From Escherichia coli (GTDB lineage Bacteria > Pseudomonadota > Gammaproteobacteria > Enterobacterales > Enterobacteriaceae): DNA of 64,000 nucleotides. Made by a program: the position numbers and the translations under genes. Each line of letters starts with the position of its first letter. The stretch's first letter is position 1. Under the pieces are notes generated by a model. The model did not search any database. It was given only the letters and a program-made list of their open reading frames with translations, and had not been told where the DNA came from. Positions 863 to 20,018 of the stretch are shown piece after piece. The DNA is taken from assembly GCF_003790525.1 (NCBI RefSeq), contig NZ_CP033635.1. One strand, given 5' to 3'.

Positions 863-872
863 GGTGATATCG

Positions 873-1208: not shown

Positions 1209-1226
1209 GCCTCGCGGATCAGACAA

Positions 1227-1246
1227 GGGGCTTCGGCCCCTTTATT
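1227..1246 (+). terminator. Intrinsic terminator inside the structural operon (GGGGC-UUCG-GCCCC followed by TTTATT)
   Basis: GC stem with UUCG tetraloop and T-rich tail read directly; placed after the head-proximal genes, analogous in position to the T7 T-phi terminator (established knowledge). Confidence 0.55.
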
Positions 1247-1258
1247 GCAGGAGTGTAT

Positions 1259-1582
1259 ATGGAACTCGTAAACCTCAAAACCGGCACTGACAGCTACCAG
1301 GATGAGAGCGGAGAAACCAGAACTCGCGATGAATACCCGTGGGGGCTGTGCATCACTCTTAATAACGACACATTGAATAAGCTGAAGGCGCAACCTCAGG
1401 GCGTCGGAACAGAAGTGATGATAACTGCAAAGGCTGTTATTCGAGGCCTGTCTGCCAGAGAAACTGACGATGGTGTTAATCGCAGCGCCGATCTGCAGAT
1501 CACTGATATGGCGATCGCTCCTGTTTCCGGGGATGTAGAAAAATCAGCGGCTGAAACCCTGTACGGCAATGGGGGTGAGTAA
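1259..1582 (+). CDS. Hypothetical phage virion protein (107 aa)
   Basis: GCAGGAG RBS 5 nt before ATG 1259; stop overlaps the next start (TAATG). Confidence 0.55.
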   Translation: MELVNLKTGTDSYQDESGETRTRDEYPWGLCITLNNDTLNKLKAQPQGVGTEVMITAKAVIRGLSARETDDGVNRSADLQITDMAIAPVSGDVEKSAAETLYGNGGE

Positions 1583-2187
1583 TGGCCTCTGTAGTAGAGA
1601 TCTGCAATCGTGCGCTGTCCAATATTGGCAATAGCCGCAGCATTAACAGCCTGACGGAAGCCAGCAAGGAAGCGGGGGAATGTTCGCTGCACTTTGAGGC
1701 CTGCCGTGATGCTGTGCTTTCTGATTTTGACTGGAACTTTGCTACCAAACGCGTGGCGCTTGCAGATACGAGCAATCCACCGCCTGACTGGGAATATGCG
1801 TACCAGTACCCGTCAGATTGTCTGCGCATTACTGAAATTATGCTTCCTGGTGTACGCAATCCAACAGCAGCAATGCGCGTTCAGTACGAAGTTGGTGCAG
1901 ACACCAACGGAACAGGAAAGTTGATCTACACAGACCAGCCTCAGGCATGGCTCAAGTATGTCTCTCTCGTTACAGATGTGAACATGTTTGATGCCATTTT
2001 TATGGAGGCGTTGGCCTGGCGTCTTGCGGCAGCTATTAACATGGCGCTGACTGGGAATGCAGACCTCGGTACGTTTGCCCTCAATATGTACAATCGCGTG
2101 ATTCTTAGTGCTGGCTCGCATAGCCAGAATGAATCACAGGAACCACAGCCACCGGTTGATGAGTTTACCATTGCGAGGTTGTCCTGA
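1582..2187 (+). CDS. Tail tubular protein A-like (T7 gp11-like)
   Basis: 201 aa; size, position and N-terminal sequence pattern resemble T7 gp11 from memory; stop/start overlap with neighbours. Confidence 0.6.
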   Translation: MASVVEICNRALSNIGNSRSINSLTEASKEAGECSLHFEACRDAVLSDFDWNFATKRVALADTSNPPPDWEYAYQYPSDCLRITEIMLPGVRNPTAAMRVQYEVGADTNGTGKLIYTDQPQAWLKYVSLVTDVNMFDAIFMEALAWRLAAAINMALTGNADLGTFALNMYNRVILSAGSHSQNESQEPQPPVDEFTIARLS

Positions 2188-4658: not shown

Positions 4659-5122
4659 TGATCGATGTTCGAATTATTCCCGCTACCGAAGAGCATCTTC
4701 AGATGATTTTGCCGGATGTTCGTCAGGCTGATATTGACGAACTGTATGCGGTATCGCTGATGACTACCGAAGATGCGCTGCGCGTTGGTCTGCGCACTGC
4801 GACTATGGCCTGGTCAGGGTTCGCGAACGGAGAACTGGTAACCATGTTTGGTGTATCTCCGGCGTCAATGATCGGTGGCAATGGTACACCCTGGCTGGTC
4901 GGGACCAGCCGTATTGAAAAATATCAGAAGACATTTCTGCGCCACTGCCGCCCTGTATTGCAGCAGATGCTGGCAGTTTATCCGCGCCTGGAAAACTACG
5001 TCGACGAGCGAAACTATGTTGCCAAAGCATGGCTGCACTGGCTTGGATTCAGGCTTGAAGAGGCCGCGCCTTATGGTGCTCTTGGTCTTAATTTCCACAG
5101 ATTTCACATGGAGAGAAAATAA
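4658..5122 (+). CDS. Internal virion protein (gp13-like position)
   Basis: 154 aa; gene order only. Confidence 0.45.
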   Translation: MIDVRIIPATEEHLQMILPDVRQADIDELYAVSLMTTEDALRVGLRTATMAWSGFANGELVTMFGVSPASMIGGNGTPWLVGTSRIEKYQKTFLRHCRPVLQQMLAVYPRLENYVDERNYVAKAWLHWLGFRLEEAAPYGALGLNFHRFHMERK

Positions 5123-5667
5123 TGTGCGATCCGGTTATTGCTGGTGGCGCAATGCTCGCCATGAGTGGCATTCAGGCATACACCCAGTACCAACAGGGAA
5201 AGTATGCCTCGAAGGTTGCAGAAGCGAACGCAGATATAGCCACTGCTCAGGCAAATGATGCAATAAACATAGGTAACGCTGAAGCTGAGCAACGGCGCAG
5301 AGAGACCCGACAGCGGCTTGGTACACAGGCGGCGACAATGGGGGCTACCGGCGCTGATTTATCTACAGGTAACGCGCTGGATATATTTGGCGACACTGCT
5401 CAGTTTGGCGCTCTTGATGCGCTGACGACGGTGAATAACGCGCAACGCGAGGCTTACGGTTATCAGATGCAGGCTGCTAACTATAAAGCAGAAGCCAGTT
5501 CAGCCCGTAAACAGGGGAATGTGGGAGCAGCAACAACATTGCTCACTGCGCCTCTGAAGGCATACGGTGCGTACCAGATGTTTGGTGGGACGTGGAGTCC
5601 GTTTACTCAAAGCACTCCTGCGCCAATCGGGGCAGCAGCAGGAACCAGATTACCCGGAGGATTATAA
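5122..5667 (+). CDS. Internal virion protein (gp14-like)
   Basis: 181 aa, starts MC..., Ala/Gln-rich, same size class and position as T7 gp14. Confidence 0.5.
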   Translation: MCDPVIAGGAMLAMSGIQAYTQYQQGKYASKVAEANADIATAQANDAINIGNAEAEQRRRETRQRLGTQAATMGATGADLSTGNALDIFGDTAQFGALDALTTVNNAQREAYGYQMQAANYKAEASSARKQGNVGAATTLLTAPLKAYGAYQMFGGTWSPFTQSTPAPIGAAAGTRLPGGL

Positions 5668-8180: not shown

Positions 8181-9979
8181 GTTACTTTGGCCTTAATCCA
8201 GTAAACCAGAATCAGCAGCTTGACGAAGCAGCATCAAATCCAGTTGGCTTTAACAGCGATGTTGGTTTTTTCGACAATGCTGTAGGAGCGGCATTGTCTG
8301 GTTTGTACTCCGGGCTGGTGGCAAAGCCTGATCAGTTGCTCTGGGCAGGGATGGATAAAATCGTATCCCCGATTGCTCAGTTTGTTAACGAAAACACCTC
8401 GCTCAATGACACTTCAGTTTCATACATTGCCGAGCAGAGAAAACTAGCAGAGCAGCAGGTTAAGCGGCTGACGCCTGATGCCGCGACAACCGGAACCGCC
8501 GGGCAGGTTCTTTATGGGTTGTTCGATATGGGCGGGCAGGCTGTTATCGGTACAACGCTCGGTGGTCCGGTCGGAGGTGCTGCGGCGGTAACTTCGCTAC
8601 AGGGTTTTTCTGAGTTTGAACGGCTGACAGCACAGGGTGTTGATTTCAGGACGGCGCAGGAAGCGGGATTAGTGCAGGGTATTACTGCTGGTGCCGGAAC
8701 ACTGATCCCTATGAGCCTCGGGTTACGTGCTGGTGGTGCGCTGGCGGAAGGTGTGGCGGCTCAGCTTGCGCGGACGGGTGAAAGTTCAGTGCGACGCGCC
8801 GCAGCAACAGCAGTACGTGCAACGCCAGATATTGCCTATGCCGCAGGTACAAATATTGCGTTCGGTATGGCACAGCGTGGGCTTACTGCAAAAACGCTTC
8901 GTGATGGTGGCTATAGCGAAATGGCTAACCAGTATGATGTGTTGGATCGACAGGCAATTGCTATTGATGCTGTTCTTGGGGTGGCGTTTGGTGGTGTCGG
9001 CAGATTTATTAACTCTCGCGGCGAGTCTACAAGCGCACCAAATTTTTCACCAGTTGATATCGATGCTGCACTGGCGGCGAATGCCGCTCATCATGCTGAA
9101 ATTGATATTGCTCCCGGTGTGCCGATCAACGTGCTTTCGCGTAATTCGCACATTCAGGCTCTGCGAAAAGCCATGTCTGATGTTAGCCAGGGGAGACCTG
9201 TAGACGTTGCCAGCATTGTTGAGTCTGCATCTTTCAGTGAAATTCCTGGGCGCAAGAGTCTGCTTTCTCAGGCAGTTAATGAGGCTCTGTCATCTGTAGA
9301 TGATGGAGTAACGGCGCGCGCTATAGAAAATCGGTTGCTTGAAGAACAGGCCGCGCAGCTTTTGCCGCGTGGCGATAGACAGGTTTACCAGTCTGAAATC
9401 GCTAATAGCCAACGAATTATTGAAAATCTCACTGAACAGCGCGCACAAATTCTTGCAGAAGAGCCAACCGGTAGCGGTAAAGCTTTGTCTCGTGCTCGAT
9501 CAGATAAACAGGCCAGACTTCGCGATATTGATCAACGAATCCGGCAGGCACAAGAACGCCTGGAGTTTTCCCGTAACGCGTTGGCTCCGCACGAGCCTGG
9601 CGGTCAGTTTTTTGAAGCTCGAGCAGAACTGGCACGACGACAGCAGGCAGAAAGTGAACTTAATGCTCAGGCTGTTTCATTCTATAAAACAGCAGAGGTC
9701 AGGACGCCAGACGAAGTAGCTCCTTTTGAGCCCGGTAAGATATTGCAACAGACAGAACAAAAAATGATGGCAGATCCGGCAGGAGATATTGATCTGCGTA
9801 TAGCTGAAGACTCGCTGCTTGAATCTCCGGACATGATAATCACCGTGCTGGATGATGATGGTAATCCACAATCGCGCAGTGCGCGTGAAGTACTGGATGA
9901 AGCGAACAGGGAAAGTGAGCAGGCAATACAGGATTCCAGCCTGTTTGATGTTGCTGTGGCGTGTTTCTTGAGAGGTTAA
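8177..9979 (+). CDS. Internal virion / ejection protein, 600 aa, Gly/Ala-rich
   Basis: ATGA overlap with upstream gene; gene order. Confidence 0.5.
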   Translation: MSYFGLNPVNQNQQLDEAASNPVGFNSDVGFFDNAVGAALSGLYSGLVAKPDQLLWAGMDKIVSPIAQFVNENTSLNDTSVSYIAEQRKLAEQQVKRLTPDAATTGTAGQVLYGLFDMGGQAVIGTTLGGPVGGAAAVTSLQGFSEFERLTAQGVDFRTAQEAGLVQGITAGAGTLIPMSLGLRAGGALAEGVAAQLARTGESSVRRAAATAVRATPDIAYAAGTNIAFGMAQRGLTAKTLRDGGYSEMANQYDVLDRQAIAIDAVLGVAFGGVGRFINSRGESTSAPNFSPVDIDAALAANAAHHAEIDIAPGVPINVLSRNSHIQALRKAMSDVSQGRPVDVASIVESASFSEIPGRKSLLSQAVNEALSSVDDGVTARAIENRLLEEQAAQLLPRGDRQVYQSEIANSQRIIENLTEQRAQILAEEPTGSGKALSRARSDKQARLRDIDQRIRQAQERLEFSRNALAPHEPGGQFFEARAELARRQQAESELNAQAVSFYKTAEVRTPDEVAPFEPGKILQQTEQKMMADPAGDIDLRIAEDSLLESPDMIITVLDDDGNPQSRSAREVLDEANRESEQAIQDSSLFDVAVACFLRG

Positions 9980-9984
9980 ATTAA

Positions 9985-12459
9985 ATGAGACAGGAATGTA
10001 TACAAGCGGTCCAGCAGGCGGCGCAGCGCACGTTAACGGCGCGAGAAATACAGAACATTGAAGACCGCATTTATCGAAATATGCGCTCCATTGCTCGTGA
10101 TGACCCGATGTCGTGGCGACAACTTTCCGAATCAGAACGGTTGTATCGTGCAGCACAATTGGCATCTGAAGAATTACAGCGAGAAGCGGCATTAAAGAAA
10201 CGTCGTGTGGCCCTCACTATAGCCGCACGTCAGAGATTGGATAAATTTATCAATAGCTATCAAGGGGCTGATGGGAAACTTGGCGCTCTTAACCGTACTA
10301 TTGCTTTTAATGCAGACGGTAAATCGAATTTCCTCTCTGTTGAATCCAGAACAAAAGCCACCCGTGATTATGCATTGAGTCAATTGCAGGAGGCATTCGA
10401 AGCAGTTGATCCTCGCTTTTTTGGTCTGTTTGAAGATGAAGCGGGCGTACGTGACCTGGTATATGAAATGCGGGGGCAAAATACTGGCAATGCTAAAGCA
10501 AGAAAAGGTGCTAAGGCGTGGAGAGAAGTTACAGAGCTGCTGCGCCGCCGGTTTAATGATGCTGGTGGGGACATTGGCTATCTCGAAAACTGGGGGATCC
10601 CTCAACATCATTCTATGGAAAAGGTTGGGGCGGTATCAAAGGATAAGTGGGTTAGCGATGTTATAGGTAAGCTGGATCGCAAATATTATACCCGAGCCGA
10701 TGGACAACTGATGAACGATGCCGAGTTGTCTGAATTTCTTGGAGAGGCTTATAACACGATCGCTACTGGTGGGCTGAATAAGCTTACTGATACCGGAATG
10801 CGAATTTCCGGCGCACGTGCTAACCGTGGTAATGCATCACGACAGATACATTTCAAAGATGCAGATTCCTATCTGCAATATCAGCAACTTTATGGCGATC
10901 GCTCTCTATGGGAAATCATGGTCGGTCACCTGGAAGGTATCAGTAAAGATATTGCGCTGGTGGAAACATATGGCCCAAACCCCGATCATGTTTTCCGCTC
11001 CCTTCTTGATCAGGTTAAGGCAGAAACGGCAACAGCTAACCCGAGTAAAACCGGTAGCGTCGAGCGTCTGGCGAACAAAACAGAGAACTTGTACAACTTT
11101 ATTTCCGGAAAAACACAGCCTGTAGCGAATCCGCACATCGCGCGATGGTCTGACAATATCCGCAACTGGCTGGTTGCCAGCAGACTCGGATCCGCGTTGC
11201 TGTCATCGTTCTCTGATCTTGGAACCATGTATCTGTCTGCGAAGGTTACCAACCTTCCAATGAACCAGTTATTTCGCAACCAGCTTGAAGCTATGGACCC
11301 AACGAACCGTACAGAACTTGCGCGGGCGCGCCGCGCTGGCCTGGCGATGGAATCTCTACTTGGCAGCGTTAACCGCTGGGCGATGGATAATATGGGGCCG
11401 TCTGTGTCTCGTTGGGCGGCAACGGCGGTAATGCGTGCCAGTGGGCTTACAGCATGGTCAGATGCGCACAAGCGCGCCTATGGCGTAACCATGATGGGAA
11501 GCCTGGGAGAAGTAGTGTCACGGACACCAGACCTTCGTAGCCTCGATGACTCTGATTTTCGTATCCTGAAAAGCAAAGGGATTACTGACACAGACTGGAG
11601 CGTATGGAAGCTGGCGCAACAGGAGGACTGGGGGAACGGTAATAATACGATGCTGACACCGGAAAGCATTATGCGTATCCCTGATTCAGCAGTTAAACAT
11701 CTTGGTGAGCCTGAACGCGTGAAATTTGAGGCAATGCGTAAACTGCTCGGTGCCGTAACTGAAGAAGTTGATATGGCTGTTATTACACCGGGCGCACGTG
11801 AACAGATGTTCGTAGGGTCTGGTCTTCAGCGTGGAACATGGAAAGGTGAATTAACGAGAAGTGTTTTCCTGTTTAAATCGTTCCCTATCTCGGTAGTTAT
11901 GCGTCACTGGCATAGAGCTATGGGGATGCCGTCTGCTGGTGGGCGTGCGGCATATATAGCAACGTTTTTAGCAAGCACAACCATGCTTGGTGCTCTTTCC
12001 ATGCAGATTACTGATCTTATTAATGGGAGAAATCCAAAAGAAATGACCGGTGACAACATGGTTAAATTCTGGATAAATGCATTTTTAAAAGGTGGTGGGG
12101 CAGGGTTGTATGGTGATTTTCTTTTCTCTGACCACACCAGGTACGGGAGCGGCGCACTAGCGTCGATGCTTGGCCCGGTAGCTGGTCTGGTTGATGACGT
12201 AGTGAAGATTGCTCAGGGCATACCGTTAAATGCTGTGGAAGGGAAGAATGAGCAGACTGGTGGTGATCTGGTTAAGCTTGGGAAAGGTTTGATGCCTGGT
12301 GCGAATCTCTGGTACTTGAAGGCGGCTCTCGATCACATGATCTTTAATCAGATGCAGGAGTATTTTTCACCAGGCTATTTGCGTAAAATGGAGCAACGTT
12401 CGAAGAAAGAGTTTAACCAGACATACTGGTGGCGACCTCAGGATGTCACTCCGCAATAA
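9985..12459 (+). CDS. Internal virion / ejection protein (gp16-like position), 824 aa
   Basis: Last large gene of the structural operon; AGAGG RBS upstream. Confidence 0.5.
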   Translation: MRQECIQAVQQAAQRTLTAREIQNIEDRIYRNMRSIARDDPMSWRQLSESERLYRAAQLASEELQREAALKKRRVALTIAARQRLDKFINSYQGADGKLGALNRTIAFNADGKSNFLSVESRTKATRDYALSQLQEAFEAVDPRFFGLFEDEAGVRDLVYEMRGQNTGNAKARKGAKAWREVTELLRRRFNDAGGDIGYLENWGIPQHHSMEKVGAVSKDKWVSDVIGKLDRKYYTRADGQLMNDAELSEFLGEAYNTIATGGLNKLTDTGMRISGARANRGNASRQIHFKDADSYLQYQQLYGDRSLWEIMVGHLEGISKDIALVETYGPNPDHVFRSLLDQVKAETATANPSKTGSVERLANKTENLYNFISGKTQPVANPHIARWSDNIRNWLVASRLGSALLSSFSDLGTMYLSAKVTNLPMNQLFRNQLEAMDPTNRTELARARRAGLAMESLLGSVNRWAMDNMGPSVSRWAATAVMRASGLTAWSDAHKRAYGVTMMGSLGEVVSRTPDLRSLDDSDFRILKSKGITDTDWSVWKLAQQEDWGNGNNTMLTPESIMRIPDSAVKHLGEPERVKFEAMRKLLGAVTEEVDMAVITPGAREQMFVGSGLQRGTWKGELTRSVFLFKSFPISVVMRHWHRAMGMPSAGGRAAYIATFLASTTMLGALSMQITDLINGRNPKEMTGDNMVKFWINAFLKGGGAGLYGDFLFSDHTRYGSGALASMLGPVAGLVDDVVKIAQGIPLNAVEGKNEQTGGDLVKLGKGLMPGANLWYLKAALDHMIFNQMQEYFSPGYLRKMEQRSKKEFNQTYWWRPQDVTPQ

Positions 12460-13154: not shown

Positions 13155-13176
13155 AAAAAAGCCCGCAGCGCGGGCT
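13155..13176 (-). terminator. Intrinsic terminator of the cargo operon
   Basis: AGCCCGC-GCU-GCGGGCU hairpin followed by six U on the - strand; overlaps the stop codon at 13175. Confidence 0.6.
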
Positions 13177-13615
13177 ATTCTTCTTCATCATTAAAAAGCG
13201 GATTGTTGTTTCCATCTGATGAAAGGAAAGGTATGTGTTCTCTTGAAAATCCAACAATGACAATTTCATTATCATTTTTTGCATAATGAATGCATTCATT
13301 AGAATGCCTTCCGCCAGGGTTGAAATTTAAGTTAATGGTATAATTCTTAAATGTGTTTGGATACCATGTTGGCCCACAATGATAATGCCAATAATTCTCT
13401 TGCTCATAATTGTCTGAGCCGGGAATTTTATCATGGTTATCATCAACCCACGAGGGCTTGTTTTTTCCAACAAGCGCCCTTCCATTGGCAACATCCTCTA
13501 AAAAACTTTGTATGATTTTTATTTCATCATCAGTAAGGAAAGGTCCGTCTACAGCGAAAGGGGTGTTGCTTTCCCCATGTAGAAAACTATTAGATATTCT
13601 AATGTTAAACTTCAA
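13175..13615 (-). CDS. Hypothetical cargo protein, about 146 aa, low GC, Asn-rich, no recognised domain
   Basis: Probable TTG start at 13615 with AGGAG RBS 6 nt upstream, 20 nt after the stop of the 55-aa ORF; ORF track shows a longer frame from 13756 that overlaps the upstream gene. Confidence 0.5.
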   Translation of the reverse strand: MKFNIRISNSFLHGESNTPFAVDGPFLTDDEIKIIQSFLEDVANGRALVGKNKPSWVDDNHDKIPGSDNYEQENYWHYHCGPTWYPNTFKNYTINLNFNPGGRHSNECIHYAKNDNEIVIVGFSREHIPFLSSDGNNNPLFNDEEE

Positions 13616-13635: not shown

Positions 13636-13803
13636 CTATTTGGAGCGAAATGCCGCCTTGAAGTCGCTGAAAGATGTTCCTGTCTGGTAAACCATATCCT
13701 TGTCGCGCTCTTTGCTTGCGCGGCCAAGCATAACTTTTCCAATGACATCCCAGCATTGCTTGGCTTGTTCATTGTGCTGAGTACGATTTTTCAACGCTGT
13801 CAT
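13636..13803 (-). CDS. Small protein (55 aa), first gene of the cargo operon; possible regulator or antitoxin-like partner
   Basis: ATG with AGGAGG RBS 6 nt upstream, placed immediately downstream of promoter P_A; translated by hand. Confidence 0.5.
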   Translation of the reverse strand: MTALKNRTQHNEQAKQCWDVIGKVMLGRASKERDKDMVYQTGTSFSDFKAAFRSK

Positions 13804-13815: not shown

Positions 13816-13858
13816 TTACCTTTAAGGTAATAGTACGCTATTCACCCACAGTCTGCAA
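13816..13858 (-). promoter_or_regulatory. Promoter P_A (-35 TTGCAG at 13853-13858, 17-bp spacer, -10 TACTAT at 13830-13835) with operator copy A (TTACC-TTTAA-GGTAA, 13816..13830)
   Basis: Hexamers and the 15-bp palindrome read directly; the operator abuts the -10 and the RBS. Confidence 0.55.
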
Positions 13859-13902: not shown

Positions 13903-14589
13903 TCAGAAGAACCCAGCCTTGTCGTTGATGTACTCCGCGTGGGTCTGGATATCACGCAGGCATTTGCTCACACCAACAATGTAGCAGAACATGGTGGTCA
14001 GCTCCGCCGCCGCGCCCGATACGTCGTGCCCGTCTTCCTGTAACTGGTTCAGCAGATTCATCAGCAGTGAGTTCTCCGTCAGGCCGAGAACACCAGACGG
14101 AGAATGAATCAGGCTGCGGTAGCCGGGCTTCAGTGGGGCACTGTAGGTTTTGTTCTCTATCTTCATTGCCTGCATCACTGCTGATGCTGTGGCGTTGGCT
14201 ACCTGGTCGGCAACTATCTTTATGCGTTCTTCCTGCGGGAGCGAGTTTTTAATGTAACTTCCGGTGCGGCGGATCTGAGGAAGAACCTCACCTGTAACCC
14301 ATTTACGAAAGCGGTAGGGGATAGTGCCTGGTGTCACTGCGTCGCGGCAGCGGAGGATCAGTGTGTAGAGGCCTGACTCGTTGATAATATTGGTTTCACC
14401 TTGACGGCCTAAGTTAAATTTAGCCCTTTCATCATCATCAAGAGATTTTATTGACATAGTGGGGTTTGTCAGTTGAAGAGCTTTAATAACGTCTTTGGCA
14501 ACAAACCAAGGATTTCCATCAATAACAATGGCTCGAATGGTGGCTTCTGATTCAAAATGAAAAACAGATGGGGTTACGTTAGCAGTCAT
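13903..14589 (-). CDS. Antirepressor-like protein with N-terminal BRO-N / AntA-type domain, 228 aa
   Basis: Motifs FHFE...IR..IDG.PWFVAKDV and ESGLY.LI read in the translation (BRO-N family, from memory); start set at ATG 14589 with AAGGTGA RBS rather than ORF-track 14742, which has no RBS and a Gly/Cys-rich non-protein-like extension. Confidence 0.8.
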   Translation of the reverse strand: MTANVTPSVFHFESEATIRAIVIDGNPWFVAKDVIKALQLTNPTMSIKSLDDDERAKFNLGRQGETNIINESGLYTLILRCRDAVTPGTIPYRFRKWVTGEVLPQIRRTGSYIKNSLPQEERIKIVADQVANATASAVMQAMKIENKTYSAPLKPGYRSLIHSPSGVLGLTENSLLMNLLNQLQEDGHDVSGAAAELTTMFCYIVGVSKCLRDIQTHAEYINDKAGFF

Positions 14590-14742
14590 AGTGATCACCT
14601 TTGTAGTTAGGTTAATCACCACTACCGACGCCAATCGGTTGGTGGTGAACTGTGCAGGGTTGGCGTAACCGGCTACAAAGGACCCGGCGCACCTTTCGGT
14701 GCCCCCACACAGCCCACCATAGAATAGGTGCGCTTTACACAT

Positions 14743-14761
14743 AAAAAAACCGCTTATGCGG
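14743..14761 (-). terminator. Short intrinsic terminator or attenuator in the leader of the antirepressor-like gene (CCGC-AUAA-GCGG followed by seven U)
   Basis: Read on the - strand; stem is only 4-5 bp, so call is tentative. Confidence 0.4.
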
Positions 14762-14855
14762 CATATGTGCCTCTGTAGTAACCCGGGACGCCAATCCCGG
14801 CACTGGATTTTGCCAGTGCCCGATTACTATGGCACAAGAGGAGTGCGATGTAAAT

Positions 14856-14898
14856 TTACCGAAAAGGTAATAATAAACACTCTACTTGGTAATTGCAA
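14856..14898 (-). promoter_or_regulatory. Promoter P_B (-35 TTGCAA at 14893-14898, 17-bp spacer, -10 TATTAT at 14870-14875) with operator copy B (TTACC-GAAAA-GGTAA, 14856..14870)
   Basis: Near-consensus sigma70 hexamers with exact 17-bp spacing; palindrome overlaps the -10 and start site. Confidence 0.6.
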
Positions 14899-14901
14899 AC
14901 C

Positions 14902-15159
14902 TTATCTGGTTTGTTTTCGTAATTGTTCGGCACAATAGTCGAGATGTGTTTGCAGATCCCGCATAGACATCTGTGAGCTGGTGACGTAGTTAATCAGTGC
15001 AGTCAGTTCGGCAAGTGGGCCATCGACATTAAATCCATCCTTATCGAGATCCCGGAGTAATTTCATCAAGTGCGATCCCTCCACCAGTGACCTGACGCCT
15101 CCCGGCGTGTGAATCCTTTCGGTAAATCCGTCTTCCAGTGGATAGTGATACTGCTGCAT
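14902..15159 (-). CDS. Small protein (85 aa) paralogous to the C-terminal domain of the adjacent antirepressor-like protein; candidate SOS-controlled small antirepressor
   Basis: By-eye alignment with the last ~70 aa of the 228-aa protein shows about 40 percent identity; ATG 15159 with GGAG RBS; LexA box directly upstream. Confidence 0.6.
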   Translation of the reverse strand: MQQYHYPLEDGFTERIHTPGGVRSLVEGSHLMKLLRDLDKDGFNVDGPLAELTALINYVTSSQMSMRDLQTHLDYCAEQLRKQTR

Positions 15160-15178
15160 CTTATCTTCTCCATGCAAT

Positions 15179-15198
15179 AACTGTATATTTATACAGTA
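15179..15198. promoter_or_regulatory. LexA (SOS) box AACTGTATATTTATACAGTA
   Basis: 18 of 20 positions match the consensus TACTGTATATATATACAGTA including both CTGT and ACAG arms; located immediately upstream of the 85-aa gene. Confidence 0.65.
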
Positions 15199-15235
15199 TC
15201 AAATAATTTGTTTGCTATCCAGCACGTTTTGCAAA

Positions 15236-15250
15236 TTACCCGAAAGGTAA
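15236..15250. promoter_or_regulatory. Operator copy C (TTACC-CGAAA-GGTAA) in the divergent region between the 85-aa gene and the tailspike gene, next to a TTGCAA hexamer (15229-15234)
   Basis: Third copy of the 15-bp palindrome; promoter partner hexamers not clearly assignable. Confidence 0.45.
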
Positions 15251-15354
15251 TATCTATTCGTATTTACAGTCTTTCTATCCATATGTGGTTTTTCAGGTAA
15301 TAGAATAACCAGATATGCGGCGCAACGGGTGCTGCGACTATCTGGAGATTTAAC

Positions 15355-17544
15355 ATGACGGTCTCAACCGAAGTTGACCACAACGAATACACCGGTAACG
15401 GCGTTACGACATCATTTCCGTATACCTTCCGTATTTTCAAAAAAACCGACCTGGTTGTTCAGGTGTCTGACCTGAACGGGAACGTAACAGAATTGGTTCT
15501 GGATACCGGTTATAAGGTAACTGGAGCGGGCACTTATAGTGGCGGTGAAGTGGTTCTCCAGTCGCCGCTTGCTGCTGGCTGGCGAATTACGATAGAGCGT
15601 GTGCTTGATGTGGTGCAGGAGACTGATCTTCGCAATCAGGGAAAATTTTTCCCCGAAGTTCATGAAGATGCATTTGACTACCTGACGATGCTGATCCAGC
15701 GATGTTTTGGGTGGTTCAGACGTGCATTGATGAAACCATCTTTGCTTGCAAAATATTACGATGCAAAGCAAAACAAAATTTCTAACCTTGCAGATCCATC
15801 ATTTGAGCAGGACGCTGTAAATAATCGCTCAATGCGTAATTATGTCGATGCTGCAATCGCCGGGGTTGTTGGTGGTTTTGGTTGGTTTATACCGTCAGGA
15901 AGCGGGGCAAGACAACGAACATTTCAAAGCAAAATGAGGGATATAATTTCTCCTTGTGATTACGAAGATAATATTTTTATGATTAAGGAGTTGATATCCA
16001 AAGGCAAAAATGCCGCTGTTTTTAACTCATATTATACTTTTGTTATTACTGTTGGCGAATGGGGTGATTTCCCTACACTCAAAGATGCAATCATTGCAGC
16101 CCAGTCAATGAGACCTATGTGGGATGGTGGTAATGCTTTCTGCGAAATAAGAATTAAGACCGGGCATATTATCAACTATCAAATTGAATTCAGTTCAGGT
16201 GTTGATTTGTCTTGGATTAAAATAACATCAGAAGACTCAGTGGTTTTCTCTGACACTCGTTTGTTTACTAAAATCGTTAGAACGTATTACGAATACAAGT
16301 ATTTATTTTACATTTGCGATGCAGCAAAAAGTCCTGTATTTGCTATTCAGATCGAAGAAAATAGAGATGATAGCGATGTTTGTGCATTTATTGTAACTCA
16401 AAAAGCTGAACTTAATTTCTATCCGTATTCAGGTGCTCGAAAGTTCTACGTTGGAATTCATGGTAGTTTTGGTGCAAAAATTAGTGCATATCATACCGGA
16501 TGTGCTCCTGATGAGGAAAGTGTTGCTGCATATATGCCAGAAGGGTATTACGTATGTGATTTTTCTTATAGCAGATACTCTTCCCTGCAACTGGTAAATA
16601 ATGTCAAGGCATCAATGCCTGTAAGCAAGTTTGAACGGTGCACAGAGAGTACGGTTGCGTCAGTTAATTGTATTTATAATGTTAAAGCAGATTTTCAGGG
16701 GTCAAGTGCAAGCTATTGTTATATAGGATGGAATGTAAGAGATGGTTCAAATGTTAATATACGCGACCATAAAACTATACATTGCTCATATCGTGGATTA
16801 ACCTGCATTCATACAGCATATGTTGATGCAAGACGACATGACGTTGAAGAAAGTGATGCAGAAACAAGTGGTAAAGTCCTTGAACCAAATATTGAAAAAG
16901 GTTTTTATGGATGTGCACTTGGTGTGCGTATTGATGGTGCGGGTTGCGTTGATGTTGCTGGTAATGATATGCGCAATTGTGGAACAGCCGTTAATGCAGA
17001 CACTGGTGCTGTTATTTCAGGAAAGGCTGTAGATATCTCAGGGGCTGAGCTGGGATTTGATTGCCATGCAGGAGCATCTGTTAATTTTCCAAGGCTATGG
17101 GGTACAGATATAAAAAAATTAATGCACCTCCAAGATGGTGTAAGGTTTAACTCTAATATTTGTCATGTATTTGGTGCAAATCCCACAAAAGATATTAGAT
17201 GGATTGATGTAGAGAGATCTGAAGCTTCTTTTATGAATGCAACGCTGGATGCAGATTCAGGATTTATTGCCGACTGTGGTAGTAGGATAACCATTGAAGG
17301 AAGTAAAGTTAAAAACCAAACAATAAGAAGTTTTTTTGGATCATATGTGGCTATAAATAATACTGTTGCTGACAGAACTTATTCAGATATAGCCGATGTT
17401 CCGCAGTTGACTATTAGTGGAGGATCTTTTATTTCTGCTACAGGATATTCTAATTCTGACTCCAGCCCTCTGAGGTTGAGCACAACACGAAATACACTTG
17501 GCGTTGGAGGAGCCATATTTTCAACCAATGGGGAAGTTTCATGA
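15355..17544 (+). CDS. Tailspike / tail fiber protein, 729 aa: conserved N-terminal virion-attachment domain plus divergent C-terminal receptor-binding part
   Basis: N-terminus carries the YTGNGVTT.F.Y.F pattern typical of podovirus tail fiber or tailspike adapters (from memory); C-terminal two thirds are AT-rich and Cys-rich; GGAG RBS 7 nt upstream. Confidence 0.7.
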   Translation: MTVSTEVDHNEYTGNGVTTSFPYTFRIFKKTDLVVQVSDLNGNVTELVLDTGYKVTGAGTYSGGEVVLQSPLAAGWRITIERVLDVVQETDLRNQGKFFPEVHEDAFDYLTMLIQRCFGWFRRALMKPSLLAKYYDAKQNKISNLADPSFEQDAVNNRSMRNYVDAAIAGVVGGFGWFIPSGSGARQRTFQSKMRDIISPCDYEDNIFMIKELISKGKNAAVFNSYYTFVITVGEWGDFPTLKDAIIAAQSMRPMWDGGNAFCEIRIKTGHIINYQIEFSSGVDLSWIKITSEDSVVFSDTRLFTKIVRTYYEYKYLFYICDAAKSPVFAIQIEENRDDSDVCAFIVTQKAELNFYPYSGARKFYVGIHGSFGAKISAYHTGCAPDEESVAAYMPEGYYVCDFSYSRYSSLQLVNNVKASMPVSKFERCTESTVASVNCIYNVKADFQGSSASYCYIGWNVRDGSNVNIRDHKTIHCSYRGLTCIHTAYVDARRHDVEESDAETSGKVLEPNIEKGFYGCALGVRIDGAGCVDVAGNDMRNCGTAVNADTGAVISGKAVDISGAELGFDCHAGASVNFPRLWGTDIKKLMHLQDGVRFNSNICHVFGANPTKDIRWIDVERSEASFMNATLDADSGFIADCGSRITIEGSKVKNQTIRSFFGSYVAINNTVADRTYSDIADVPQLTISGGSFISATGYSNSDSSPLRLSTTRNTLGVGGAIFSTNGEVS

Positions 17545-17837
17545 TTAAGAGCATTGATGTCACTCCATTTCTTCACTCGCTTTGCGCTTTTGCGGCTCAG
17601 GTACTGGTTGGTATTTTTACCGGAAACTGGGCTTACGGTGCGATAGCCGGTTGTACGTTCTTCATTGCGCGTGAACACACCCAGGCAGAATATCGCTGGA
17701 TAGAAAAGTTTGGGAAAGGGAAACGTATCAACATGCCGTGGTGGGGAGGTTTTGATCCACGCGTGTGGGATGTGGGAAGTCTGTTGGATTTTGCTGTTCC
17801 TGTTGTTTTTTGTTTTTGTGTTTATTTCTCTATTTGA
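17541..17837 (+). CDS. Small membrane protein (98 aa, two hydrophobic helices)
   Basis: ATGA overlap with the tailspike stop; hydrophobic stretches in translation. Confidence 0.5.
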   Translation: MIKSIDVTPFLHSLCAFAAQVLVGIFTGNWAYGAIAGCTFFIAREHTQAEYRWIEKFGKGKRINMPWWGGFDPRVWDVGSLLDFAVPVVFCFCVYFSI

Positions 17838-18039
17838 CTGCTACCGCGCCATTAAATGGTGCGGTATTCAACCTGCTCTTCACTGTTTGTTTCTTCAGAG
17901 TCATGTAAAAGGTGAGCTTTATTCTCGGCATGAAAAACAGGGAATTGACGATGTTAAAGTAACAAAAAACCATAAATGGTTTATTATGCGTAATGCTTTA
18001 CTGTTCAGGAGGTTGTTATGCATATAAACGGTGGAAAAC

Positions 18040-18444
18040 ATGTCAGCTCAACTAACCAGTGAAACTTTAAATCAGTGGCTTAGCATGAGTTCTCTGGCGG
18101 CGGTGATAGCAGGAGTTCCTCCTGAGGTTGCTTTGGGTGCTTTGGCTGGAGCGGTAATTTTTGTTACCTCTGCAGTAGAGTACCCCATCCGTCGCCGGGT
18201 GCTCCTGTCGATGCTCAGCTTTCTTTGCGGCCTTCTCTTTTACAAACCAGCAGCATCAATTCTTATCGGCATAGCCAGCCTGATCCCTACCATCACGCAG
18301 GACTCTTTTGAAAAAGGGATTGTTTTCTCTGCAGGCGCATTCGTGTCAGCAATTGTCGCTGTGCGTATTGGTATATGGCTCTATCACCGTTCCGATAATC
18401 CACGCGAGTTAATTCCGGGGAGAAAAGACGATGGTAACGCATGA
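18040..18444 (+). CDS. Membrane protein, holin or antiholin candidate (in-frame alternative start GTG 18031)
   Basis: Several predicted transmembrane stretches; two in-frame starts three codons apart (GTG-GAA-AAC-ATG). Confidence 0.45.
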   Translation: MSAQLTSETLNQWLSMSSLAAVIAGVPPEVALGALAGAVIFVTSAVEYPIRRRVLLSMLSFLCGLLFYKPAASILIGIASLIPTITQDSFEKGIVFSAGAFVSAIVAVRIGIWLYHRSDNPRELIPGRKDDGNA

Positions 18445-18739
18445 GTTTTTTTTGCTTATCACCAATGCAGTTATTTGCACTGGCATAGCAATTCGCGTTG
18501 TCACATTCCGGCGTAACGGCTCTCAACACCGAAGGTGGGGAGGATGGCTTGCTTATTTCCTGATTGTTGCTGCGGCCAGTATTCCTGTTCGTGTCGCCTA
18601 TGCAATCTGGTTACGTACGCCAATGGCTGTGGATTTATCTGAGGTCATTATCAACGCTGTCATGCTAGCTGCGGTTATTAAAACGCGCGGTAACGTCGTT
18701 CAAATTTTCAAAGTATCGAGGTCTAAACATGGAGATTAA
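18431..18739 (+). CDS. Holin candidate (102 aa, 2-3 transmembrane helices) immediately upstream of the endolysin
   Basis: Position and hydrophobicity pattern; overlaps neighbours at both ends. Confidence 0.5.
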
Positions 18740-19358
18740 ACAATTCCAGCGAGCTGCTGGTATCAGCGAGGCACTGGCCGCACGCTGGTTCTCGCATATA
18801 ACTTCTGCGATGAAAGAGTTTGGTATCAGCAAACCAGAAGATCAGGCTATGTTTATTGCTCAGGTCGGGCATGAGTCTGGAGGCTTCACCCGGTTGCAGG
18901 AGAATTTCAACTACAGCGTCAGCGGACTGGCTAACTTTGTTCGGGCTGGGCGTCTCACTCAGGGACAGGCCAACGCATTGGGGCGACGTGCAGGCGAACC
19001 ACCATTGCCACTTGAGCGCCAGAGAGCGATTGCCAATCTGGTGTACAGCAAACGCATGGGGAACAATGCCCCTGGTGATGGCTGGAACTACCGTGGGCGC
19101 GGGCTTATCCAGGTTACCGGTTTGAATAACTATCGTGACTGTGGAAACGGTCTTAAGGTTGACCTGCTGGAGAGTCCTGAACTGCTGGCGCAGGACGAAT
19201 ACGCGGCTCGTAGCGCGGCGTGGTTCTTTGCCAGCAAAGGATGCATGAAGTATACCGGCGATATTGCACGTGTAACTCTGATTATCAATGGTGGCCGGAA
19301 CGGCATCGACGACCGGCGCGCGCGATACATCAATGCCAGTAAGGTGCTGGCGGTATGA
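18729..19358 (+). CDS. Endolysin, glycoside hydrolase family 19 (chitinase-like) type
   Basis: Motifs [18 protein letters not shown] and NYRD read in the translation, recalled as GH19-type phage lysozyme signatures; position between holin and Rz. Confidence 0.8.
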
Positions 19359-19837
19359 TCTGGGCATTCGTAAAAGCATACTGGAAACAGTTGGTTATCA
19401 TGGCGATGCTTGCTGTTCTGGTCATATCAGGAGTTGTAGCCTGGAATGCACACGGTAGTCGTCAGTACGACGCCGGGTATGCGCAGGCGGAAGAAGACCG
19501 CAAAGACGAAGAAGACAAAGTTCGTCAGTACTACGAACAGGAGAAAGTGACCAATGAACGTGAAGCGCAGCAAAGAATCGACCAGGCGCGCAATGATGCT
19601 CTTGATGCTGCCGCTCGCGCTGGCAGGTTGCAGCAACAACTCTTTGCCATCCGTGAGCAGCTCAGGCAGTATAACGCCATTGTCGGCGCTGGGACGTCAG
19701 CCGCAGACACCGGAGTTTTGCTTGCCGACGTGCTCAGCAAATCTCTCGAGAGAAACAGACAACTGGCAGAGTATGCTGACCGGGCAGCCGAAGCCGGAAG
19801 AGTCTGCGAAAAACAGTACGACACCCTGACCAGATAG
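19355..19837 (+). CDS. Rz-like i-spanin (N-terminal transmembrane helix, coiled-coil periplasmic domain)
   Basis: ATGA overlap with endolysin stop; typical Rz architecture. Confidence 0.7.
19554..19829 (+). CDS. Rz1-like o-spanin lipoprotein, fully embedded in the Rz gene in the +1 frame
   Basis: Signal peptide ending in lipobox LAGC, Pro-rich mature part, embedded arrangement as in lambda Rz/Rz1 (established knowledge). Confidence 0.65.
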   Translation: MNVKRSKESTRRAMMLLMLPLALAGCSNNSLPSVSSSGSITPLSALGRQPQTPEFCLPTCSANLSRETDNWQSMLTGQPKPEESAKNSTTP

Positions 19838-19992
19838 CATGGTATTTTTCATGGCACTGATTTCCGGTGACGGTATATAAAACGGTACGGGAAAAGTTGA
19901 GCTTTGGAAAAATGTTATCACTCAATTGGTTATGGTGTCCGTGAATAATTGAGTGGGAATGATTTTGATCCCTGCACTATGAATGAACAAAA

Positions 19993-20018
19993 CCCTCTGT
20001 TACTACAGAGGGTTTTTT
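19993..20018. terminator. Bidirectional intrinsic terminator (CCCTCTGT-TACT-ACAGAGGG flanked by A-run and T-run) at the prophage / yfgI junction
   Basis: Perfect 8-bp stem with six T after it on + and four on -. Confidence 0.6.

What the first reader, a model, noticed from the sequence alone, without database searches (positions are those of the whole stretch)
14590..14898. Structured leader with terminator-like hairpin between P_B and the antirepressor-like gene
Seen: the approximately 265-nt region between P_B and ATG 14589 contains an 8-bp stem GGCACTGG/CCAGTGCC, a GGCACC-GAAA-GGTGCC hairpin with GNRA loop, and CCGC-AUAA-GCGG followed by seven U (14743..14761) on the transcribed strand. 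Inference: transcription attenuation or a roughly 100-nt small RNA ending at the U-tract, controlling read-through into the antirepressor gene; compare the sar antisense RNA of P22 immI (established knowledge, different mechanism).
Basis: partly seen in the sequence, partly recalled or inferred. Interest (0 to 1): 0.5.

Follow-up and report, generated by a model that had tools for sequence, protein, structure and literature searches.

The report
P1-type IsrK/C4 antisense switch guarding antirepressor
The "structured leader" is a known two-RNA control module (an IsrK-like small RNA followed by a C4 antisense RNA, as in phage P1 and Salmonella Gifsy-1) that very probably keeps the antirepressor gene of an E. 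coli phiV10/epsilon15-like prophage silent; it is real, but an unannotated copy of a known system, not a new one.

Summary
The hairpins are real, apart from one misread base. They are more than a leader with an attenuator. On the minus strand, Rfam places an IsrK small RNA at 14819..14743 (74.7 bits, threshold 50).

Two exposed C4 elements, b' (CCUUUGUAG) and a' (ACGCCAA), are perfectly complementary to two downstream sites. These are b2 (CUACAAAGG), which overlaps the antirepressor Shine-Dalgarno sequence, and a2 (UUGGCGU). The same elements also match decoy copies b1 and a1 inside the IsrK-like RNA.

This three-way complementarity holds in all 10 phages compared (P1, Gifsy-1, VT2-Sakai, APSE-7 and others). 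The recognition sequences differ between phages and change together at all sites.

The likely mechanism is the phage P1 immI one. C4 blocks translation of the antirepressor, and the terminated IsrK-like RNA counteracts C4. The Gifsy-1 orf45 coupling frame is absent here.

The window is a Uetakevirus prophage. GenBank and RefSeq records of this genus annotate no RNA at this position. Verdict: a new member of a known kind, of low interest.

The parts
14856..14870 (.). Inverted repeat TTACC-N5-GGTAA overlapping or abutting the -35 of the leader promoter. It is probably the operator of the prophage repressor.
   Evidence: The window has three perfect copies, all within this module (13816, 14856, 15236). 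The half-sites are conserved and the spacer varies in phiV10, Tyrion and phiv142-3. The complete genome of the related phage ZX5 has 14 sites (10 perfect, 0.54 expected by chance), clustered around the repressor gene. Which protein binds them is an inference.
14826..14854 (-). Sigma-70-type promoter: -35 TTTACA (14854..14849), 17-bp spacer, TG-extended -10 CATAGT (14831..14826). The inferred transcription start is about 14819.
   Evidence: Promoter scan. In the alignment it sits over the annotated P1 promoter P1c4 (formerly P51b; -35 TTGACC, -10 TATAGT) and over the Gifsy-1 sequence upstream of isrK. The Rfam IsrK model begins 7 nt after the -10.
14743..14819 (-). IsrK-like small RNA, 77 nt. 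Hairpin 1 is at 14819..14800. Hairpin 2 is at 14799..14784 and carries a1 (UUGGCGU, 14794..14788) in its loop. b1 (CUACAGAGG) is at 14778..14770. The intrinsic terminator GCCGC-AUAA-GCGGU-U7 is at 14762..14743.
   Evidence: Rfam RF01394, 74.7 bits against a gathering score of 50, model positions 1-77 of 77. Hairpins 1 and 2 are 98% paired with compensatory changes across 10 phages. The overlapping match to c4-a1b1 (RF03163) scores 44.1, just under its threshold of 46.7.
14638..14724 (-). C4 antisense RNA (Rfam match). By homology with the annotated 77-nt c4 RNA of P1, the mature form is predicted to be 14718..14641. b' (CCUUUGUAG, 14681..14673) lies in the loop of hairpin 2. a' (ACGCCAA, 14666..14660) lies in the single-stranded joint.
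   Evidence: Rfam RF01695, 79.5 bits against a gathering score of 45, model positions 1-87 of 87. The 17-bp closing stem is 98.8% paired, with 8 compensatory pairs. Predicted probability of being unpaired is 0.85 for b' and 1.00 for a'. P1 c4 ends are taken from the GenBank annotation.
14628..14634 (-). a2 target site UUGGCGU in the antirepressor 5' UTR, complementary to a'.
   Evidence: 7 of 7 Watson-Crick pairs. The a'-a2 helix is 92.9% paired across 10 phages, and 4 of its 7 pairs show changes on both sides.
14595..14606 (-). b2 target site CUACAAAGG (14606..14598), overlapping the Shine-Dalgarno sequence AAGGUGA (14601..14595) of the antirepressor gene.
   Evidence: 9 of 9 Watson-Crick pairs with b'. 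The site ends 8 nt before the AUG. Equivalent sites 6-16 nt before the AUG are present in all 10 phages.
13903..14589 (-). Antirepressor-like gene (228 aa, Bro-N domain). This is the regulated gene.
   Evidence: Pfam Bro-N, E = 1.3e-19. PHROG 130 'anti-repressor Ant', E = 1e-55. RefSeq annotates the same start codon. Overexpressing the homologue in phage ZX5 pushes the phage toward lytic growth (PMC9782041).

Best explanation
The region between the promoter and the antirepressor gene is a P1-immI-type RNA switch made of two RNAs from one transcript.

1. Transcription starts near 14819. The promoter carries a phage-repressor-type operator at its -35.
2. Many transcripts stop at the weak intrinsic terminator (14762..14743) and yield a 77-nt IsrK-like RNA.
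3. Read-through transcripts carry the C4 element. By analogy with P1 it is cut out, at its 5' end by RNase P, as a stable RNA of about 78 nt.
4. C4 displays two single-stranded recognition elements, b' and a'. They pair with b2 and a2 just upstream of the antirepressor start codon. b2 overlaps the Shine-Dalgarno sequence, so ribosomes are excluded and no antirepressor is made in the lysogen.
5. The IsrK-like RNA carries near-identical copies of the targets (a1, b1). It can therefore capture a'/b', either in cis within the read-through transcript or in trans as the short RNA. This relieves the block, as shown experimentally for IsrK in Gifsy-1.

Shown here: the elements, their structures, and the covarying complementarities. 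Inferred from P1 and Gifsy-1: RNA processing, direction of regulation, the decoy role of the short RNA, and what binds the operator.
For: - **Family matches.** Both Rfam models match end to end above their gathering scores and are the only hits in the window.
- **Shared architecture.** The same order (promoter, a1/b1 hairpins, terminator, C4, a2/b2, start codon) occurs in P1. There the GenBank record annotates a1, b1, c4, a2 and b2 and notes 'repression of icd ant translation'. It also occurs in Gifsy-1, VT2-Sakai, APSE-7, Hafnia yong2, Moraxella Mcat4 and three other Uetakeviruses.
- **Structure.** 90.3% of cells are paired and 34 pairs have compensatory changes. 0 of 500 shuffles reach this, and slid controls give 35-45% paired.
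- **Recognition code.** In all 10 loci, b' matches b2 by 6-12 contiguous Watson-Crick pairs. The cognate mean is 8.5 against 4.7 for non-cognate pairs. a' matches a2 and a1 by 6-8 pairs.
- **Parallel changes.** phiV10 lost one nucleotide at b1, b' and b2 alike. phiv142-3 changed all three sites to CUAAGUGG/CCACUUAG. Tyrion changed a1, a' and a2 to UUGGUCU/AGACCAA.
- **Duplex energies.** Cognate pairs are more stable than non-cognate ones: -31.6 against -22.3 kcal/mol for the IsrK target, and -26.9 against -20.6 for the downstream target.
- **Accessibility.** b' and a' are predicted to be unpaired in folded C4.
- **Long-range pairing.** The minimum-energy fold of the whole leader pairs a1/b1 with a'/b'. 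This is 'structure A' of the Gifsy-1 study.
- **Experiments elsewhere.** IsrK supplied in trans raised anrP translation 139-fold in Gifsy-1, and a processed RNA downstream of IsrK (STnc1160) depends on the isrK promoter (PMC4825925). c4 RNA represses Ant synthesis in P1 and P7 (PMC8546580, PMC12197685).
Against: - No expression data exist for this prophage. The transcription start, termination efficiency, C4 processing and repression are all inferred.
- The Gifsy-1 authors explain activation through a 45-codon upstream reading frame that overlaps the C4 element, not through direct occlusion at a2/b2. That frame is cut to 15 codons here, so their mechanism cannot simply be transferred.
- In the isolated 5' UTR, a2 and the Shine-Dalgarno sequence are predicted to be largely base-paired locally (probability unpaired 0.18 and 0.16). 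A local hairpin may therefore contribute to silencing independently of C4.
- The role of a1/b1 is labelled only 'putative' in the P1 record.
- For the window's own C4, the cognate downstream target ranks only 5th of 10 by unconstrained duplex energy. The close relatives Tyrion and Mcat4 share the same b sequence.
Confidence: 0.8

Rival explanations
1. One reading: a purely cis-acting attenuator. The terminator hairpin alone sets how much transcription reaches the antirepressor gene. The short product is a by-product, and no trans-acting antisense RNA is involved.
For: A canonical hairpin plus U7 lies 154 nt upstream of the start codon. A hairpin plus U-tract is seen at this position in all 10 aligned loci, with different stem sequences. 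Read-through of this terminator is a real step in Gifsy-1.
Against: This does not explain the C4 match (79.5 bits). It also does not explain why three separated sites keep complementarity to the C4 loops through coordinated changes. In Gifsy-1 the operon was transcribed but not translated (280 against 4 Miller units), so control lies after termination.
Confidence: 0.08
2. The Gifsy-1 mechanism exactly as published. The short RNA activates translation of an upstream reading frame that overlaps the C4 region, and the antirepressor is translated by coupling to it. There is no direct occlusion of its Shine-Dalgarno sequence.
For: The conserved UAUGGUGGG at the 5' edge of C4 contains the AUG used by orf45 in Gifsy-1. 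The Gifsy-1 frame does run for 45 codons across the C4 element and ends at the anrP start.
Against: In the window this frame stops after 15 codons, at a UAG inside b'. By my own reading of the aligned sequence it also stops after 15 codons in P1. It therefore cannot deliver ribosomes to the antirepressor start 90 nt further on. The antirepressor has its own good Shine-Dalgarno sequence, AAGGUGA, which b2 overlaps.
Confidence: 0.07
3. The leader is coding. The 279-aa reading frame that starts at ATG 14742 is the real antirepressor, with an N-terminal extension.
For: The mechanical ORF list shows an open frame from 14742 that is in frame with the gene.
Against: There is no Shine-Dalgarno sequence before 14742, which sits directly after the U-tract. 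Relatives differ from the window in this stretch by 1-nt and 6-nt insertions or deletions that would break the frame. RefSeq and phage records start the gene at the ATG equivalent to 14589. The Bro-N domain starts at residue 18 of the short form.
Confidence: 0.01
4. The module is a decaying relic that no longer regulates anything in this prophage.
For: No direct expression data exist. Only part of the prophage lies in the window.
Against: Both RNAs score as well as those of the experimentally studied phages. All pairings are intact, and b'-b2 is 9 of 9. The leader is 100% identical in other complete E. coli genomes and about 95-98% identical in two phage records, one of them the isolated phage ZX5, whose antirepressor is functional.
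Confidence: 0.04

Closest known systems
Phage P1/P7 immI operon: c4 antisense RNA with a1/b1 and a2/b2 sites controlling icd-ant (Rfam C4 RF01695 and c4-a1b1 RF03163)
   Same: - Same order of parts on one strand: repressor operator, promoter, a1/b1 hairpins, hairpin plus U-tract, C4, a2/b2, ribosome-binding site.
- Same C4 fold.
- Recognition elements at the same places: a hairpin loop and a single-stranded joint.
- The b2 site lies about 8-10 nt before a start codon.
- The downstream gene is an antirepressor.
   Different: - P1 places the small gene icd between C4 and ant, and c4 targets the icd ribosome-binding site. Here C4 targets the antirepressor's own Shine-Dalgarno sequence.
- The recognition sequences differ: CACUAAC and CUGUCAA in P1, CCUUUGUAG and ACGCCAA here.
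- The antirepressor here is a Bro-N protein, not P1 Ant1/Ant2.
- The host phage is a short-tailed integrating Uetakevirus, not a plasmid prophage.
Salmonella Gifsy-1 isrK-orf45(STnc1160)-anrP locus (Rfam isrK RF01394; Hershko-Shalev et al. 2016, PMC4825925)
   Same: - A 77-nt IsrK RNA with the same three hairpins and terminator.
- C4 sits at the same distance downstream.
- The a element is identical (UUGGCGU/ACGCCAA).
- The same long-range pairing of the middle of IsrK with the C4 region.
- The downstream gene is an antirepressor-like protein.
   Different: - No 45-codon upstream reading frame here; it is 15 codons.
- No Q-type antiterminator gene upstream. The module sits between the tailspike gene and virion genes.
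- The b specificity differs (CGGUGAU in Gifsy-1).
- The Gifsy-1 paper does not identify orf45/STnc1160 as a C4 RNA. It compares the locus with P4 CI instead.
Satellite phage P4 CI RNA with seqA/seqC targets (same Rfam clan CL00128)
   Same: A processed RNA from an untranslated leader pairs with two complementary sites, one upstream and one downstream of itself, on the same transcript (summarised in PMC4825925).
   Different: In P4 the outcome is premature transcription termination of replication genes, not occlusion of an antirepressor ribosome-binding site. Within the clan, Rfam assigns this sequence to C4, not to the P4 family.
Phage P22 immI sar RNA
   Same: A small RNA controls antirepressor synthesis in a secondary immunity region next to the tailspike gene. 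The genomic position is analogous.
   Different: Sar is a true cis-antisense RNA transcribed from the opposite strand across the ant ribosome-binding site (established knowledge). Here every element is on the same strand as the target, and pairing comes from short dispersed complementary motifs. There is no sequence or structural relationship.

Membership tests
C4 antisense RNA (Rfam RF01695; P1/P7 c4) | The covariance model matches at or above the curated gathering score, over the full length of the model. | tested here: met
   79.5 bits against 45, model positions 1-87 of 87, E = 2.4e-15. Found again in the whole-window scan.
C4 antisense RNA (Rfam RF01695; P1/P7 c4) | Fold made of a long closing stem that encloses two hairpins, supported by covariation. 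| tested here: met
   The minimum-energy fold of 14724..14638 gives this fold. Across 10 phages the closing stem is 98.8% paired with 8 compensatory pairs, and the two hairpins are 92% and 88% paired.
C4 antisense RNA (Rfam RF01695; P1/P7 c4) | Two exposed elements (a', b') complementary to two sites (a2, b2) in the co-linear downstream mRNA, at or next to a ribosome-binding site. | tested here: met
   b'-b2 is 9 of 9 pairs and overlaps the Shine-Dalgarno sequence. a'-a2 is 7 of 7 pairs. The sites covary in 10 phages. Probability unpaired is 0.85 and 1.00.
C4 antisense RNA (Rfam RF01695; P1/P7 c4) | A second copy of the targets (a1, b1) upstream of C4. | tested here: met
   a1 is UUGGCGU (7 of 7). 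b1 is CUACAGAGG (9 pairs including one G-U). Cognate targets pair better than non-cognate ones.
C4 antisense RNA (Rfam RF01695; P1/P7 c4) | Lies upstream of, and on the same strand as, an antirepressor gene. | tested here: met
   Bro-N domain and PHROG 'anti-repressor Ant', 49 nt downstream of the C4 match.
C4 antisense RNA (Rfam RF01695; P1/P7 c4) | Processed (5' end by RNase P) from a longer precursor to a stable RNA of about 77 nt that represses antirepressor synthesis. | not testable with these tools
   Requires RNA and genetic experiments. The ends 14718 and 14641 are predicted only by alignment to the annotated P1 c4.
IsrK Hfq-binding RNA (Rfam RF01394; Gifsy-1) | The covariance model matches at or above the gathering score over the full length, and the third hairpin is an intrinsic terminator with a U-tail. 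| tested here: met
   74.7 bits against 50, model positions 1-77 of 77. The terminator scan hits 14762..14749 followed by U7.
IsrK Hfq-binding RNA (Rfam RF01394; Gifsy-1) | Its own promoter lies immediately upstream, so the RNA begins at hairpin 1. | tested here: inconclusive
   A TTTACA-17-CATAGT promoter-like site ends 7 nt before the model start and aligns with the P1 promoter P1c4. The transcription start has not been measured.
IsrK Hfq-binding RNA (Rfam RF01394; Gifsy-1) | A downstream orf45-type reading frame translationally coupled to the antirepressor. | tested here: not met
   The frame from the conserved AUG (14720) stops after 15 codons, inside b'. In Gifsy-1 it runs 45 codons to the anrP start.
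IsrK Hfq-binding RNA (Rfam RF01394; Gifsy-1) | Genomic context next to a Q-type antiterminator gene whose expression is the output. | tested here: not met
   The neighbours are a tailspike gene, a small LexA-box gene and virion genes. Gifsy-1 has antQ directly upstream.
IsrK Hfq-binding RNA (Rfam RF01394; Gifsy-1) | Binds Hfq and activates antirepressor translation in trans. | not testable with these tools
   Experimental properties, shown for Gifsy-1 only.
c4-a1b1 motif (Rfam RF03163) | The covariance model matches at or above the gathering score. | tested here: not met
   44.1 bits against 46.7 at 14832..14780. The same nucleotides are covered by the IsrK match. P1, Gifsy-1 and VT2-Sakai pass with 48-51 bits.
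P22 immI sar antisense RNA | RNA transcribed from the strand opposite the antirepressor mRNA, overlapping its ribosome-binding site. | tested here: not met
   No promoter-like site on the plus strand in 14590..14900. All structured elements and Rfam matches are on the minus strand, the same strand as the gene.

The most novel reading that the evidence does not exclude
In phiV10/epsilon15-like phages the module may be the minimal form of the C4 switch. C4 would act directly on the antirepressor's own Shine-Dalgarno sequence, with no icd or orf45 intermediary. It may also be wired into a two-key induction circuit that has not been described. In that circuit a phage-repressor operator sits on the IsrK/C4 promoter. 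A second gene sits immediately upstream and encodes only the C-terminal domain of the antirepressor. That gene has the same operator plus a conserved LexA box. DNA damage (through the small protein) and RNA titration (IsrK against C4) would then be separate routes to repressor inactivation. Recognition classes (a and b sequences) would decide which co-resident prophages, for example Stx phages in O157 hosts, cross-talk.
Probability: 0.3. Interest if true: 0.45.

Novelty: new member of a known kind. Interest (0 to 1): 0.2.

Why it matters
For annotation, about 940 of 5426 complete E. coli genomes carry a match to this leader (449 of them over at least 80% of its length), yet the one RefSeq record I opened lists only the flanking protein genes. 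Some phage records instead call spurious 'Ash family' proteins over the RNA region.

For biology, the result says that antirepressor expression, and hence induction and anti-immunity, in Uetakevirus prophages is probably under RNA control. The one experimental paper on lysogeny control in this genus that I found (phage ZX5) does not mention this.

The side-by-side comparison also shows that Gifsy-1 'orf45/STnc1160' is the C4 element. P1 c4 and Salmonella IsrK are therefore two halves of one widespread module, although a 2025 review still treats them separately.

None of this is a new principle.

Tried and rejected
- **Unconstrained duplex folding** of C4 against its targets produced long artificial duplexes. 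I replaced it with segment-restricted duplex energies and a count of contiguous complementarity.
- **Column-based pair counts for b'-b2** are depressed (71-81% paired) because loop insertions and deletions misalign the sites. The per-locus search is the better test.
- **Two further helices** were tested and are inconclusive. The first encloses the terminator (CACAU/AUGUG) and is 77% paired. The second pairs the 3' strand of the C4 stem (UCACCAC) with the conserved downstream GUGGUGA. It is 93% paired but almost invariant. Overall covariation was reached by 73 of 500 shuffles. A local hairpin that sequesters the Shine-Dalgarno sequence is predicted in the Uetakevirus leaders but is not formed the same way in other phages.
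- **An independent C4 promoter** between the terminator and C4 was looked for and not found. The spacer is only 18 nt and is not conserved.
- **The leader as an N-terminal protein extension** was rejected.
- **NCBIfam** gave no hits for the four proteins of the module.
- **The original P1 papers** (Citron and Schuster 1992; Heinrich et al. 1994) are not held in the library. P1 facts therefore rest on the GenBank annotation, on secondary citations and on my own knowledge of those papers.
- **The prophage repressor gene** is not in the window, which holds only the virion-to-att half of the prophage. The operator inference had to be made on the ZX5 genome.
Full report
**1. Observation**

- The 8-bp stem is GGCACUGG (14820..14813) with CCAGUGCC (14806..14799).
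- The GAAA hairpin is at 14702..14689. Its stem is 5 bp, because the sequence reads GGCACC-GAAA-GGUGCG, not ...GGUGCC.
- The terminator is CCGC-AUAA-GCGG followed by U7, ending at 14743. The terminator scan also finds it.

The 240 nt from 14819 to 14580 fold at -105.3 kcal/mol, against -80.2 +/- 4.7 for shuffles (z = -5.3). The structure is therefore far beyond chance.

**2. What it is**

An Rfam scan of the region gives two full-length matches on the minus strand, both above their gathering scores.
- IsrK (RF01394) at 14819..14743, 74.7 bits against a threshold of 50.
- C4 antisense RNA (RF01695) at 14724..14638, 79.5 bits against a threshold of 45.
- The c4-a1b1 motif (RF03163) overlaps IsrK and falls just below its threshold (44.1 against 46.7).

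These are the only Rfam matches in the whole 64-kb window.

**3. Genomic setting**

The window carries the virion-to-attachment-site half of a phiV10/epsilon15-like (Uetakevirus) prophage of E. coli.
- Positions 1..12459 and 14580..19964 are 95-98% identical to phage vB_EcoP_ZX5.
- The attachment core ATTGAGTGGGAATGATT reported for ZX5 and phiV10 lies at 19948..19964.
- The module sits between a virion gene (ending at 12459) and the tailspike gene (15355..17544).
- The regulated gene (14589..13903) encodes a Bro-N protein of the PHROG 'anti-repressor Ant' family. Overexpressing its ZX5 counterpart drives the phage toward lytic growth (PMC9782041).
- The phiV10 and Tyrion GenBank records and the RefSeq record examined annotate no RNA here. 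phiV10 marks only a 'putative rho-independent terminator'.
- The ZX5 paper does not mention any small RNA, antisense RNA or LexA.
- The APSE-7 GenBank record annotates exactly this pair, isrK and C4, with a' and b' regions upstream of a Bro-N gene.

**4. Anatomy and recognition code**

I follow the site names used in the phage P1 GenBank record.

| Element | Sequence | Window position | Location |
|---|---|---|---|
| b' | CCUUUGUAG | 14681..14673 | 11-nt loop of C4 hairpin 2 |
| a' | ACGCCAA | 14666..14660 | single-stranded joint of C4 |
| a2 | UUGGCGU | 14634..14628 | antirepressor 5' UTR |
| b2 | CUACAAAGG | 14606..14598 | overlaps the Shine-Dalgarno sequence AAGGUGA (14601..14595), 8 nt before AUG 14589 |
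| a1 | UUGGCGU | 14794..14788 | loop of IsrK hairpin 2 |
| b1 | CUACAGAGG | 14778..14770 | between IsrK hairpin 2 and the terminator |

- b' and a' are predicted to be unpaired (probability 0.85 and 1.00).
- b'-b2 forms 9 of 9 Watson-Crick pairs, and a'-a2 forms 7 of 7.
- a1 pairs with a' by 7 of 7. b1 pairs with b' by 9 pairs including one G-U.

**5. Comparative test**

I aligned the leader with nine other phages: phiV10, Tyrion, phiv142-3, APSE-7, Gifsy-1, Hafnia yong2, Moraxella Mcat4, VT2-Sakai and P1. All nine have C4 above its threshold. Eight have IsrK above its threshold as well. P1's IsrK-like segment scores 35 bits, and P1 passes the c4-a1b1 model.

- *Structure.* For the local structure plus the a'-a2 and b'-b2 helices, 90.3% of cells pair and 34 of 60 pairs show changes on both sides. 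No shuffle out of 500 reaches this, and slid controls give 35-45%.
- *Recognition sequences change together.*
  - phiV10 lost one nucleotide at b1, b' and b2 alike (CUAAAAGG/CCUUUUAG).
  - phiv142-3 has CUAAGUGG/CCACUUAG at all three b sites.
  - APSE-7 has CUAAACAGG/CCUGUUUAG and UUCGCAU/AUGCGAA.
  - Tyrion has UUGGUCU/AGACCAA.
  - P1 has GUUAGUG/CACUAAC and UUGACAG/CUGUCAA.
- *Cognate against non-cognate.* Contiguous b'-b2 complementarity averages 8.5 nt for cognate pairs and 4.7 nt for non-cognate pairs. Duplex energies are -31.6 against -22.3 kcal/mol for the IsrK target and -26.9 against -20.6 for the downstream target.
- *Position.* b2 always ends 6-16 nt before the start codon.

This is the signature of a working antisense recognition code. 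It is the same logic that underlies P1/P7 heteroimmunity.

**6. Promoter and inputs**

- *Promoter.* The promoter-like site TTTACA-17-CATAGT (14854..14826, with a TG-extended -10) ends 7 nt before the first IsrK nucleotide. It aligns with the annotated P1 promoter P1c4, formerly P51b.
- *Operator.* A palindrome TTACC-N5-GGTAA (14870..14856) abuts its -35. The half-sites are conserved and the spacer varies among Uetakeviruses. The window's only three perfect copies flank this module.
- *Operator distribution in ZX5.* The complete ZX5 genome has 14 sites, 10 of them perfect, against 0.54 expected. They cluster on both sides of the repressor gene and in front of other transcription units.
- *Inference.* I infer that this is the prophage repressor's operator. 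This parallels the C1 operator Oc4 (Op51) in front of the P1 c4 operon. It is an inference, not a demonstration.
- *No separate C4 promoter.* No promoter-like site lies between the terminator and C4, so C4 must come from read-through transcripts.

**7. Mechanism proposed**

Shown by sequence: the parts, the folds and the covarying complementarities.

Inferred from P1 and Gifsy-1:
- Most transcripts end at the weak 5-bp terminator and give the 77-nt IsrK-like RNA.
- Read-through transcripts yield C4. By alignment to the annotated 77-nt P1 c4, its mature ends are predicted at 14718 and 14641. RNase P generating the 5' end is my own knowledge of Hartmann et al. 1995.
- C4 pairs with a2 and b2 and occludes the Shine-Dalgarno sequence, so the antirepressor is not made.
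- The IsrK-like RNA mimics the targets. It captures a'/b' in cis (the long-range helix in the minimum-energy fold, which equals 'structure A' of PMC4825925) or in trans. This releases translation.

In Gifsy-1, IsrK supplied in trans raised anrP translation 139-fold, and a processed RNA (STnc1160) downstream of IsrK depends on the isrK promoter.

The translation shows that Gifsy-1 'orf45' is a reading frame laid over the C4 element. It starts at the invariant UAUGGUGGG and ends at the anrP start. In the window that frame stops after 15 codons, at the UAG inside b'. The published orf45 coupling route therefore cannot apply here. Direct occlusion of the antirepressor's own Shine-Dalgarno sequence, as at icd in P1, is the simpler expectation.

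**8. Caveats**

- There are no expression data for this phage.
- The role of a1/b1 is only 'putative' in P1.
- In the isolated 5' UTR, a2 and the Shine-Dalgarno sequence are predicted to be mostly paired locally. That hairpin is not conserved in form across phages.
- Two extra helices I tested are inconclusive.

**9. Verdict**

The finding is real and functionally meaningful. It is an unannotated member of the P1 c4 / Gifsy-1 IsrK module, which is common in temperate phages. It occurs in 247 phage records and in 940 of 5426 complete E. coli genomes.

It misses the C4 antisense RNA and names the wrong comparator, P22 sar. Novelty: new member of a known kind. Interest: low.

Noticed in passing
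window 15181..15196 (LexA box) and 14902..15159 (minus-strand gene): A perfect LexA-type box (CTGTATAAATATACAG) lies just upstream of an 85-aa gene. The gene product is 41% identical to the C-terminal 80 residues of the antirepressor (PHROG 450, function unknown). The box and the gene are conserved in phiV10, Tyrion, phiv142-3 and ZX5. This looks like an SOS-controlled mini-antirepressor next to the RNA-controlled one.
   Followed up: partly
window 13816..13830, 14856..14870, 15236..15250; L010 (ZX5), 14 sites: The palindrome TTACC-N5-GGTAA marks all three promoters of this module. In the complete ZX5 genome it occurs 14 times (0.54 expected by chance), clustered around the repressor gene and in front of the integrase and terminase genes. 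It is probably the Uetakevirus repressor operator, dispersed over the genome as the C1 operators are in P1.
   Followed up: partly
L004 (Gifsy-1) 1301..1438 compared with window 14720..14673: The published Gifsy-1 'orf45' is a reading frame lying exactly over the C4 antisense RNA element, which is also the STnc1160 region. The frame is cut to 15 codons in this window, and in P1 by my own reading of the sequence. It is therefore not a conserved feature of the module.
   Followed up: yes
L010 (ZX5) 1779..1892; L006 (Hafnia yong2) 988..1671: Phage records annotate 'Ash family protein' coding sequences on top of the C4/IsrK RNA region. These are probably mis-annotations of the RNA module.
   Followed up: no
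window 19948..19964: The attachment core ATTGAGTGGGAATGATT marks the prophage end. A hairpin plus U-tract follows at about 19990..20018. Sequence beyond about 19965 no longer matches the phage (ZX5) and is presumably host chromosome, so the prophage repressor gene is not in the window.
   Followed up: partly
window 13636..13803 and 13175..13615 (minus strand): Downstream of the antirepressor lie a 55-aa gene and a 146-aa gene (PHROG 5954, function unknown). They sit behind a third operator-bearing promoter-like site (TTGCAG-17-TACTAT). The 193-aa ORF in the mechanical list overestimates the second gene. This cargo differs between Uetakeviruses.
   Followed up: no
window 14622..14616 with 14648..14642: The nearly invariant GUGGUGA downstream of a2 can pair with the 3' strand of the C4 closing stem (UCACCAC). 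This would compete with C4 folding. It is 93% paired across 10 phages but shows too little variation to test.
   Followed up: partly
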